The notes beneath the pieces are model-generated. The model saw only the letters and a list, made by a program, of their open reading frames with translations. It was not told the DNA's origin and did not search any database. Source: a virus (Duplodnaviria; Heunggongvirae; Uroviricota; Caudoviricetes). From it: 17,287 nucleotides of DNA. The stretch's first letter is position 1. Each line of letters starts with the position of its first letter. The stretch spans positions 1 to 17,287 of the IMG/VR virus record IMGVR_UViG_2713896795_000005, one strand, 5' to 3'. A program made the position numbers and the translations under genes. Shown here in pieces: positions 3,749 to 4,477 of this stretch.

Positions 3749-3919
3749 ATGGCTATGGATATTATGTCAGGTGCAAACCTAAAAGTAGAAGTAGGTACAA
3801 GTGCTGGTAACACACTAGCGACCGACTTTAAAGAAGTTCCCGAAGTTGCTAGCTTTACTACTTCTGGCTTTGAATCAGTTGTTATAGACGTAAAAACTTT
3901 CAACTCTTCATATAACCGT
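3749..3919 (+). CDS. Exon 1 of intron-containing small tail protein (putative major tail/tube protein by position)
   Basis: ATG 3749 preceded by AAGGAA (3734-3739). Unspliced reading stops at TAA 3923-3925 after 58 codons. Homologous to the fibre N-terminal domain (EVASFTTSGFESVV vs [13 protein letters not shown]). Confidence 0.6.
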
Positions 3920-4189
3920 GGATAAAATAGCGGCCTATAGTAGCAATACTATTTGAATAACTCCTTTAATTGCTGGAAACTCTTATTATTAAGTTAAAGA
4001 CAATCAGCAGCGAAACCATATTATATGGAACGTTCAACGACTAGCCGAAAGGCGTAGGGATTAAGTAATCTCGAAATGGGGAGAATCCGAAATATCGGAT
4101 TGTGATATAGTCTAATCTGTATAGAAATATGCAGCAGTCATAAAGACCGATGACGATGTAGTATTAACGCCACTACATGAATAAAAATG
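3920..4189 (+). ncRNA. Group I self-splicing intron, ~270 nt, no homing endonuclease ORF
   Basis: Conserved core elements: P AATTGCTGGAAAC (3968-3980), Q AATCAGCAGCG (4002-4012), R GTTCAACGACTAG (4032-4044), S GATATAGTCTAA (4104-4115). P4 pairing TGCTG/CAGCA and P7 pairing GACTA/TAGTC. 5' exon ends in U3919 with a candidate guide GCGG (3930-3933) pairing CCGU. Intron ends ...AAAAATG (G4189), like the T4 td intron 3' end. In-frame stops sit at both intron ends (TAA 3923-3925, TGA 4178-4180). Confidence 0.75.
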
Positions 4190-4477
4190 AAATTGCTCGG
4201 CACAAAATCGATCCCTGATATTGAACTAAGTGTTAACTATCTTGCGGATAATACAGTACACCAACAATTAGAGACTCTCGCAGACGAGCAAAAACGCTGT
4301 CAGATTCGTCTAAGCTACTATACTGATGCAACCCACACTACTGGTTTTTATGTAGTTTATACTTGCTTCGTTAGTTCCACTACTATTGATGGCGACAAAG
4401 ATGAAGTAGTAACTAAAGCATTCAACCTAGCTGTAGACGGTGCAGCCGTTGAATCAGGTACACTACCTTCTATCTAA
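4190..4477 (+). CDS. Exon 2 of intron-containing small tail protein
   Basis: Same frame as exon 1; removing 3920-4189 (270 nt) joins ...SSYNR to KLLGTKSIPDIELSVNYL..., collinear and gap-free against the fibre N-domain (...[24 protein letters not shown]...). Shared GDKD-x-VVTK motif near the C-terminus. Stop TAA 4475-4477. Confidence 0.6.
   Translation, partial: KLLGTKSIPDIELSVNYLADNTVHQQLETLADEQKRCQIRLSYYTDATHTTGFYVVYTCFVSSTTIDGDKDEVVTKAFNLAVDGAAVESGTLPSI

What the first reader, a model, noticed from the sequence alone, without database searches (positions are those of the whole stretch)
3749..4477. ORF-less group I intron splitting a small tail structural gene
The 262-nt gap between two same-frame ORFs carries the four conserved group I core elements in the right order, with complementary P4 (TGCTG/CAGCA) and P7 (GACTA/TAGTC) strands. 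It has a 5' exon ending in U with a nearby guide GCGG, and a 3' end ...AAAAATG like the T4 td intron. Removing 3920-4189 (270 nt) keeps frame and gives a ~152-aa protein that aligns without gaps to the fibre N-domain across the junction. At 270 nt it is too short to encode a homing endonuclease. The 5' splice site could alternatively be after U3913.
Basis: partly seen in the sequence, partly recalled or inferred. Interest (0 to 1): 0.85.

Follow-up and report, generated by a model that had tools for sequence, protein, structure and literature searches.

The report
Self-splicing intron in phage tail-tube gene
A 270-base self-splicing RNA (a group I intron with no gene of its own) interrupts the tail-tube gene of an uncultivated phage related to E. 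coli prophages; it is real and precisely bounded, but it is a new example of a well-known kind of element.

Summary
Window 3920-4189 (270 nt, + strand) is a group I intron. It scores 81.9 bits on Rfam RF00028 (gathering score 50, E 7.5e-20). All helices P1-P9.2 are present, and covariation with known phage introns supports them. It splits a 152-aa siphovirus tail tube protein (Pfam PF08813) into exon 1 (3749-3919) and exon 2 (4190-4477).

Related metagenomic phages 89-94% identical in this region lack exactly these 270 nt. More than 100 uninterrupted homologues read ...YNR|KLLG... across the junction without a gap. This fixes the splice sites and rules out the alternative 5' site at U3913.

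The intron has P7.1/P7.2 and its 3' half is colinear with T4 td, so it is IA2-like. It carries no endonuclease ORF.

Its closest sequence relatives (about 69% identity) are the ORF-less introns in the tail-tube gene of Twort-like Staphylococcus phages, so the arrangement has precedent.

Three intron-bearing lineages differ at 23-26% of synonymous exon sites but at only 1.5-1.9% of intron sites. They also share a distinctive synonymous block at the start of exon 2. This suggests recent lateral spread with co-conversion, which is inferred, not shown.

Splicing itself was not tested. Verdict: new member of a known kind, moderate interest.

The parts
3749..3919 (+). Exon 1 of the tail tube protein gene (codons 1-57, ends ...AAC CGU)
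   Evidence: The ORF is. Identity to intron-less alleles runs right up to 3919.
3920..4189 (+). Group I intron, 270 nt, ORF-less, IA2-like
   Evidence: Rfam RF00028 scores 81.9 bits, E 7.5e-20, over 3910-4134. The 270 nt are exactly absent in L002-L005. No ORF of 25 aa or more is present.
4190..4477 (+). Exon 2 of the tail tube protein gene (codons 58-152 plus the stop)
   Evidence: The ATG at 4187-4189 that opens the apparent 96-aa ORF is the last 3 nt of the intron.
3916..3933 (+). P1: 5' exon CCGU (3916-3919) paired with the internal guide GCGG (3930-3933); the U3919-G3930 wobble marks the 5' splice site
   Evidence: The U-G pair is kept in 6 of 6 aligned introns, and 3 of the 4 pairs show changes on both sides.
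3923..3925 (+). In-frame UAA stop two codons into the intron, in the P1 loop; it ends translation of the unspliced RNA before the ribozyme core
   Evidence: Sequence and translation. The role is inferred.
3937..3952 (+). P2 hairpin AUAGUA/UACUAU with a GNRA loop (GCAA here, GUAA in L006 and L012)
   Evidence: 100% of cells are paired and 4 of 6 pairs show compensatory changes.
3961..3966 (+). P3 5' strand CUCCUU (pairs with 4078-4083)
   Evidence: U3966 to C in L012 turns a U-G pair into C-G.
3971..4009 (+). P4 (3971-3976 with 4004-4009) enclosing P5 (3981-3984 with 3997-4000)
   Evidence: P4 is 100% paired and P5 96% paired, each with 3 compensatory pairs.
4010..4033 (+). P6 (GCG/CGU) and P6a (CCAUA/UAUGG)
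   Evidence: The substitutions at 4015 and 4022 fall in an internal loop and a hairpin loop.
4039..4043 (+). P7 5' strand GACUA (pairs with 4108-4112, a pseudoknot with P3); the guanosine-binding helix
   Evidence: Invariant in all 7 aligned introns. The guanosine-binding role comes from general knowledge of group I introns.
4044..4072 (+). P7.1 (GCC-GAAA-GGC, 4044-4053) and P7.2 (GGGAUU-AAGU-AAUCUC, 4057-4072), the subgroup IA peripheral hairpins
   Evidence: The minimum-free-energy fold recovers both. The equivalent elements appear in T4 td.
4078..4083 (+). P3 3' strand GGGGAG
4085..4100 (+). P8 hairpin AUCCGA/UCGGAU
4108..4112 (+). P7 3' strand UAGUC, preceded by the J8/7 sequence GUGAUA
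4118..4133 (+). P9 hairpin UGUAUA-GAAA-UAUGCA
   Evidence: 100% paired with 3 compensatory pairs.
4137..4178 (+). P9.1 (GUCAU/AUGAC, 4137-4154) and P9.2 (AUGUAGU/ACUACAU, 4156-4178), which lie outside the Rfam model
   Evidence: Support is weaker (85% and 77% paired). A4177 to G in L012 keeps a pair as G-U. The layout is colinear with T4 td.
4189..4189 (+). Terminal guanosine (omega G) at the 3' splice site
   Evidence: The last base missing from intron-less alleles.
4190..4213 (+). Exon 2 block AAR UUG CUC GGC ACA AAR UCG AUC, shared by all intron-bearing alleles; it differs at 7 of 24 synonymous positions from the otherwise closest intron-less allele. This looks like a co-conversion tract.
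Evidence: Scan P is about 0.04.
32..3676 (+). Upstream paralogue: a 1214-aa protein with a tail-tube-like N-domain, a fibre and a Peptidase_S74 chaperone. It gives an internal control for the exon junction.
4486..4521 (+). Terminator-like hairpin plus a T-run directly after the tube gene

Best explanation
Window 3920-4189 is a compact (270 nt), ORF-less, IA2-type group I ribozyme inserted between codons 57 and 58 of the phage's small tail tube protein gene.

The steps below are inferred from the anatomy and from the established group I mechanism. In the late transcript, the last four exon bases CCGU pair with the internal guide GCGG to form P1, and the U3919-G3930 wobble marks the 5' splice site. 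A free guanosine bound in P7 attacks after U3919. The terminal G4189 then takes the guanosine site. The freed 3'-OH of U3919 attacks after G4189 and joins AAC CGU to AAA UUG. This restores a 152-aa tail tube protein reading ...FNSSYNR-KLLGTKS.... A UAA stop two codons into the intron releases ribosomes before they reach the ribozyme core.

What is shown: the family assignment, the exact boundaries, the restored reading frame, and purifying selection on both exons. What is inferred: catalytic activity.

The intron has no endonuclease, so it cannot home by itself. It is present or absent among phages 89-94% identical in this region. It is over ten times more conserved than neighbouring synonymous sites. 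All carriers share a distinctive synonymous block at the start of exon 2. Together these suggest it spread recently between related phages by recombination that carried a short stretch of flanking exon with it (about 60% likely, against vertical inheritance with precise loss).
For: Family assignment:
- Rfam RF00028 scores 81.9 bits against a gathering score of 50, E 7.5e-20, covering the full model 1-253. Intron-bearing relatives score 81.6-84 bits.
- A hand-drawn P1-P9.2 structure was tested on an alignment with Staphylococcus tail-tube introns and a Xanthomonas terminase intron. 91.5% of cells pair, against 33-43% when partners are slid. 31 pairs change on both sides, against 4-8 when slid. 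0 of 500 shuffles reach the observed values.
- The minimum-free-energy fold independently recovers P2-P6a, P7.1, P7.2 and P8.

Boundaries and restored gene:
- Four intron-less contigs lack exactly 3920-4189.
- The spliced protein has 102 homologues, most of them contiguous proteins of 148-159 aa, at up to 96% identity. The junction NR|KLLG has no gap.
- The in-genome paralogue also aligns across the junction without a gap.
- The spliced product passes the Pfam PF08813 cut-off and matches phrog_158.

Evidence that the split gene still works:
- Across three intron-bearing lineages the exons show pS 0.23-0.26 and pN 0.017-0.026.
- All 7 variable intron positions lie in loops or keep a pair: GCAA to GUAA, U-G to C-G, A-U to G-U.

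Subgroup:
- P7.1 and P7.2 are present, and the 3' half is colinear with T4 td.

Spread:
- The intron differs at 4-5 of 270 positions while the exons differ at 33-37 of 459 (Fisher p 9e-5 to 1.5e-3).
- P is about 8e-11 for 5 or fewer changes in the 130 unpaired positions if they evolved at the synonymous rate.
- The exon 2 block is shared by all intron-bearing alleles only.
Against: - No experimental or transcript evidence of splicing was available.
- P1 has only 4 exon-guide pairs, and I found no convincing P10 pairing with the 3' exon.
- The fold z-score is modest (-1.97), although that fold ignores the pseudoknot.
- P9.1 and P9.2 are only weakly supported by covariation.
- For the spread hypothesis, no endonuclease is linked to the intron. 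The exon 2 block is only marginally significant (scan P 0.036). Strong structural constraint combined with mosaic recombination of the exons could also produce the contrast in conservation.
Confidence: 0.93

Rival explanations
1. A decayed, no longer splicing group I intron: the tube gene is a pseudogene, and the upstream tube-fibre paralogue or a helper supplies the tail tube.
For: Splicing was not tested. A paralogous tube-like domain sits just upstream. P1 is short and no P10 was seen.
Against: Both exons are under strong purifying selection in three diverged intron-bearing lineages (pN/pS about 0.07-0.11). The core elements are intact, and P7 is invariant across all seven aligned introns. 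Every intron substitution is in a loop or preserves a pair. The score equals that of the Twortvirinae tail-tube introns (70.7-98.2 bits).
Confidence: 0.04
2. Two separate small genes (58 aa and 96 aa) with a structured intergenic RNA between them. The two polypeptides would be translated independently and assemble without a covalent link.
For: Public gene callers annotate two ORFs in the intron-bearing contigs. The second ORF has an ATG at 4187.
Against: That ATG is the last three bases of the intron, and no Shine-Dalgarno-like sequence precedes it. Among the 17 sequences aligned, every full-length homologue is one uninterrupted chain across this point. Relatives 89-94% identical in this region have one contiguous gene. 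The spacer is a full-length match to a catalytic intron model.
Confidence: 0.02
3. On mobility only: the intron is inherited vertically and is old. Its high conservation reflects structural constraint, and the intron-less alleles arose by precise loss.
For: No homing endonuclease is in or next to the intron. The only endonuclease-like gene in the window, a SegE-like GIY-YIG protein at 14320-14757, is equally present in intron-less relatives. The intron was found only at this one site.
Against: Even the roughly 130 unpaired positions show at most 5 changes, where about 32 are expected at the synonymous rate. L006 encodes the same protein as intron-less L002 but carries the carriers' exon 2 block. 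That pattern fits an imported segment better.
Confidence: 0.35

Closest known systems
ORF-less group I introns in the tail tube gene (orf142) of Staphylococcus phage Twort and other Twortvirinae
   Same: These are compact (about 230-290 nt) ORF-less introns that interrupt a tail tube protein gene. They are the best sequence matches in the phage collection: 68-69% identity over 81-97% of the intron. They share the same helices with compensatory changes. In Silviavirus CIFT_MFB_MRSA28, four RF00028 hits lie directly after the tail sheath gene. That Twort orf142 is a tail tube protein is stated in PMC11878797.
   Different: The host there is a Gram-positive myovirus whose tube gene has no detectable sequence similarity to this one, and it carries three or four introns per gene. 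Here a single intron sits in a lambda-like siphovirus tube gene (PF08813) of an enterobacterial phage lineage. The insertion site and exon context are unrelated.
T4 td intron (subgroup IA2)
   Same: The 3' half has the same order of elements: P7, P7.1, P7.2, P3', P8, P7', P9, P9.1, P9.2, ending ...AAUG. The core strings are near-identical: AACGACUA, GUAGGG..CUCGAAA, GAUAUAGUCU, AUUAACG. Both occur in phages of enterobacteria.
   Different: td is 1016 nt and encodes the homing endonuclease I-TevI in a loop. It sits in a nucleotide-metabolism gene of a virulent myovirus. This intron is 270 nt, has no ORF, and sits in a structural gene.
[quoted passage not shown] 2000, cited in PMC8541194)
   Same: An intron in a late gene of siphoviruses that is present or absent among close relatives, including forms without an endonuclease gene. 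This comparison rests on my own knowledge plus the cited title.
   Different: A different gene, host and intron lineage. It was not compared at sequence level here.
Unannotated group I introns in other Gram-negative phage late genes: the Xanthomonas phage DES1 terminase region and the E. coli strain C2 prophage major capsid gene
   Same: Both are about 69% identical to this intron's core, compact, and located in late or structural genes. Rfam scores are 99.9 and 81.8 bits.
   Different: They sit in different host genes and different phage lineages. Their exact boundaries were not determined here.

Membership tests
Group I catalytic intron (Rfam RF00028) | Covariance-model score at or above the curated gathering score | tested here: met
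   81.9 bits against 50, E 7.5e-20, full model 1-253, window 3910-4134 on the + strand.
Group I catalytic intron (Rfam RF00028) | Core helices P3-P9 in canonical order with the P3/P7 pseudoknot, supported by covariation | tested here: met
   91.5% of cells pair, against 33-43% in slid controls. 31 pairs change on both sides. P7 is invariant, so covariation says nothing about it.
Group I catalytic intron (Rfam RF00028) | 5' splice site after a U that forms a U-G wobble with the internal guide sequence in P1 | tested here: met
   U3919-G3930, within CCGU/GCGG. The U-G pair is kept in 6 of 6 aligned introns. The position agrees with intron-less alleles.
Group I catalytic intron (Rfam RF00028) | Intron ends in a guanosine (omega G) | tested here: met
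   G4189 is the last base absent from intron-less alleles.
Group I catalytic intron (Rfam RF00028) | Excision restores an uninterrupted host gene | tested here: met
   The 152-aa product is contiguous with 148-159-aa homologues across the junction and passes the PF08813 cut-off.
Group I catalytic intron (Rfam RF00028) | Guanosine-dependent self-splicing | not testable with these tools
   This needs in vitro transcription and splicing, or RT-PCR. The only indirect support is purifying selection on both exons.
Group I catalytic intron (Rfam RF00028) | P10 pairing between the 3' exon and the guide sequence | tested here: not met
   By inspection, AAAUUG (4190-4195) has no complement in GGAUAAAAUA (3920-3929). 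P10 is dispensable in many group I introns (my own knowledge), so this does not exclude membership.
Subgroup IA2 (T4 td-like phage introns) | Extra hairpins P7.1 and P7.2 between P7 and P3', plus P9.1/P9.2 extensions | tested here: met
   P7.1 is at 4044-4053 and P7.2 at 4057-4072. The layout is colinear with the 3' half of T4 td. No formal classification against GISSD models was run.
Mobile (homing) group I intron | Intron-encoded homing endonuclease ORF | tested here: not met
   The longest ORF inside 3920-4189 is 24 aa. Relatives show no adjacent free-standing endonuclease gene.
Mobile (homing) group I intron | Presence/absence difference among close relatives, with co-converted flanking exon sequence | tested here: inconclusive
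   The exact presence/absence difference is shown. The exon 2 block is carrier-specific but only marginally significant (P 0.036).
Siphovirus tail tube protein (Pfam PF08813 Phage_tail_3 / phrog_158) | Profile match of the spliced product above the curated cut-off | tested here: met
   PF08813 scores 29.2 bits against 24.2. phrog_158 scores 73.1 bits, E 5.6e-20. Neither half alone has a Pfam hit in public gene calls.

The most novel reading that the evidence does not exclude
An endonuclease-less group I intron is actively spreading among lambda-like phages and prophages of Enterobacteriaceae. Spread would depend on a trans-acting nuclease or on recombination during co-infection, and it would carry a roughly 24-nt exon tract along. 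In addition, splicing efficiency might serve as a valve on the supply of plain tube subunits relative to the tube-fibre fusion protein encoded directly upstream.
Probability: 0.12. Interest if true: 0.6.

Novelty: new member of a known kind. Interest (0 to 1): 0.38.

Why it matters
1. Annotation. Public gene calls split this essential tail-tube gene into two anonymous ORFs of 58 and 96 aa with no family hit. Recognising the intron restores a proper tail tube protein.

2. Distribution. Phage group I introns are mostly reported in DNA-metabolism genes (PMC11878797). This is a clean case in a structural gene of a lambda-like enterobacterial phage lineage that has no close relative in the GenBank phage collection searched. 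The unannotated capsid-gene intron in E. coli prophages adds to this. Together they suggest that compact ORF-less introns in late genes of Gram-negative phages are under-reported.

3. A natural experiment. Phages with and without the intron are 89-94% identical in this region, and their divergence patterns contrast sharply. That makes them a usable system for asking how introns without endonucleases spread or persist.

Tried and rejected
- Alternative 5' splice site after U3913: rejected. Intron-less alleles lack exactly 270 nt, not 276, and N56-R57 are conserved in homologues.
- P10 pairing between the 3' exon and the guide: none found by inspection.
- The SegE-like GIY-YIG ORF (14320-14757) as the homing driver: rejected. 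It lies 10 kb away and is present at the same place in intron-less relatives.
- Close relatives in GenBank phages by megablast: only a 60-nt core match to Bacillus phage introns.
- E. coli complete genomes by megablast: no match.
- Plasmids by tblastn: no match.
- Exact-pattern scans for the intron: 0 hits in IMG/VR, 0 in GTDB representative genomes, and 1 further carrier in JGI metagenomes (L012).
- P0102/L010 and P0090/L011 as further split alleles. L011 is simply cut by a contig end. L010 has unrelated upstream DNA and no intron hit.
- Other introns in the structural modules of nine related loci: none.
- Literature: no paper describing this intron or this phage group turned up.

Full report
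**Observation**

The window has two same-frame ORFs, 3749-3925 (58 aa) and 4187-4477 (96 aa), separated by 261 nt. A scan of the whole 17.3-kb window against all Rfam families gave a single hit above a gathering score. This was RF00028, the group I catalytic intron, at 3910-4134 on the + strand, with 81.9 bits (gathering 50), E 7.5e-20, over the full model.

**Boundaries**

Joining 3919 to 4190 gives a 152-aa protein. A search of 5.8 billion proteins returned 102 homologues. Most are contiguous proteins of 148-159 aa, at up to 96% identity, and many come from Escherichia, Shigella, Erwinia, Enterobacter, Raoultella, Salmonella, Klebsiella and Serratia assemblies. In the alignment...FNS(A/S)YNR|KLLGTKSIPDIEL... 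runs through the junction with no gap.

One hit, P0080, is a 96-aa ORF starting M-KLLG. That is the same exon 2 artefact seen in other contigs.

I fetched the DNA for both kinds of allele. Four contigs (L002-L005) are 89-94% identical to the window and lack exactly 270 nt: AACCGT is followed directly by AAA. Four others (L006-L009), and one JGI contig found with an intron-specific pattern (L012), carry the insert. The intron is therefore 3920-4189.

**Host gene**

The spliced product passes the Pfam cut-off for PF08813 (Phage tail tube protein; 29.2 against 24.2 bits) and matches phrog_158, major tail protein, at E 5.6e-20. The neighbourhood fits a siphovirus tail module:
- tail assembly chaperone ORFs
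- a 732-aa tape measure protein
- a pb9-like distal tail protein
- a hub-like protein
- a DUF6950 protein
- a J-like tip protein

In relatives, lambda-type terminase, portal, capsid and head-tail joining genes lie upstream.

The 1214-aa protein directly upstream has a tube-like N-domain fused to a fibre and an S74 chaperone.

**Structure**

From the covariance-model alignment and inspection, I assigned these helices:

| Helix | Coordinates |
|---|---|
| P1 | 3916-3919 / 3930-3933 |
| P2 | 3937-3952 |
| P3 | 3961-3966 / 4078-4083 |
| P4 | 3971-3976 / 4004-4009 |
| P5 | 3981-3984 / 3997-4000 |
| P6 and P6a | 4010-4033 |
| P7 | 4039-4043 / 4108-4112 |
| P7.1 | 4044-4053 |
| P7.2 | 4057-4072 |
| P8 | 4085-4100 |
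| P9 | 4118-4133 |
| P9.1 | 4137-4154 |
| P9.2 | 4156-4178 |

The terminal guanosine is G4189.

I tested this structure on an alignment with three Silviavirus tail-tube introns and the Xanthomonas DES1 terminase intron. 91.5% of cells form standard pairs, against 33-43% when partners are slid. 31 pairs change on both sides, against 4-8 when slid. 0 of 500 shuffles reach the observed values. P9.1 and P9.2 are less well supported.

A plain minimum-free-energy fold recovers P2-P6a, P7.1, P7.2 and P8.

P7.1 and P7.2 mark subgroup IA. The 3' half is colinear with the T4 td intron, which ends ...CAUAAUG where this one ends ...AAAAAUG. I found no P10 pairing.

An in-frame UAA lies two codons into the intron.

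**Function**

Splicing could not be tested, but the split gene behaves as a functional gene. Among the three intron-bearing lineages the exons show pS 0.23-0.26 and pN 0.017-0.026. The 7 variable intron positions are all in loops or preserve pairing: GCAA to GUAA in L2, GAAA to GUAA in L7.1, U-G to C-G in P3, and A-U to G-U in P9.2.

The apparent start codon of the second ORF is the intron's last three bases. No ribosome-binding sequence precedes it.

**Mobility**

The intron has no ORF longer than 24 aa, and relatives have no endonuclease gene next to it. The SegE-like GIY-YIG ORF at 14320-14757 is conserved at the same place in intron-less relatives, so it is not linked to the intron.

Even so, the intron differs at only 4-5 of 270 positions between lineages whose exons differ at 33-37 of 459 (Fisher p 9e-5 to 1.5e-3). 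About 32 changes would be expected in the roughly 130 unpaired positions at the synonymous rate.

All carriers share the exon 2 start AAR TTG CTC GGC ACA AAR TCG. Intron-less alleles read AAA CTA CTA GGT ACT AAG TCA or variants of it. L006 encodes the same protein as intron-less L002 yet carries the carriers' block, with 7 differences in 24 nt (scan P 0.036).

I read this as recent lateral transfer of the intron with a short co-converted tract. It remains an inference. The rival is vertical descent with precise loss.

**Comparison with known introns**

A sensitive DNA search of GenBank phages found 428 records with partial matches. The best were ORF-less introns of Staphylococcus Twortvirinae, at 68-69% identity over 81-97% of the intron.

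In Silviavirus CIFT_MFB_MRSA28 the match is one of four RF00028 hits lying directly after the tail sheath gene. This is the tail-tube gene known from Twort as orf142, which has three introns (PMC11878797). An ORF-less group I intron in a tail-tube gene therefore has precedent.

What is new is the lineage and the site. No close relative of this phage is in the GenBank phage collection searched; the best tube-protein match is 39.6% identity and the tape measure protein about 31%. Intron-less relatives occur as chromosomal E. coli prophages, annotated "phage tail tube protein". The literature searches found no description of this intron.

**Verdict**

This is a real, precisely bounded, IA2-like ORF-less group I intron in a siphovirus tail tube gene. 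It is a new member of a known kind.

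Noticed in passing
window 32-3676 (+): A 1214-aa protein combines a tail-tube-like N-domain (phrog_158; 31% identical to the small tube protein), a long fibre region and a C-terminal Peptidase_S74 chaperone. This tube-fibre fusion paralogue sits directly upstream of the plain tube gene and is conserved (846-1219 aa) in all relatives. It suggests a tail tube decorated with fibres, or a specialised tube ring.
   Followed up: partly
window 4818-4845 (A8 run at 4835-4842): The 100-aa tail assembly chaperone ORF ends in GAAAAAAAATAA. 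The -1 frame is open from 4818 into ORF 4911-5240. This looks like a classic G/GT-type programmed -1 frameshift site.
   Followed up: partly
window 4486-4521 (+): A terminator-like hairpin of 12 pairs followed by a run of seven T lies immediately after the tube gene, before the chaperone genes. A second hairpin lies at 3683-3716, between the fibre gene and the tube gene.
   Followed up: no
window 14320-14757 (+): A free-standing SegE-like GIY-YIG endonuclease ORF (PF19835, 64.3 bits) lies next to a lysozyme gene on the opposite strand (13829-14281). It is conserved at the same place in intron-less relatives, so it is not tied to the intron.
   Followed up: partly
L019 3989-4230 (E. coli strain C2 chromosome NZ_CP010117.1, about 586957-587198); also NZ_CP044403.1 and NZ_AP024130.1: An unannotated group I intron (RF00028, 81.8 bits) lies in an unrelated E. 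coli prophage. It starts at the end of a truncated 'phage major capsid family protein' CDS and is followed by a roughly 730-nt unannotated gap. The capsid gene appears to be split by an intron.
   Followed up: partly
L010 1-170 (ENA contig ERZ28613811 scaffold_659337, 601 nt): In this tube-gene allele, homology begins 18 nt downstream of the intron insertion site. Upstream is unrelated AT-rich DNA with a reverse-strand ORF fragment and no intron hit. It could be a different insertion, a rearrangement or an assembly chimera.
   Followed up: partly
L014 2489-2695 (Xanthomonas phage DES1, OK624832.1): A strong unannotated group I intron (99.9 bits) lies between a 'terminase family protein' CDS fragment and downstream ORFs. 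The large terminase gene appears to be split.
   Followed up: no
window 212-226 compared with L002 exon 2 start: At the position equivalent to the intron site, the fibre paralogue reads GAG|AAACTACTAG. Those 10 nt match the start of exon 2 in the intron-less tube allele (AAACTACTAGG) rather than the block carried by intron-bearing alleles.
   Followed up: no
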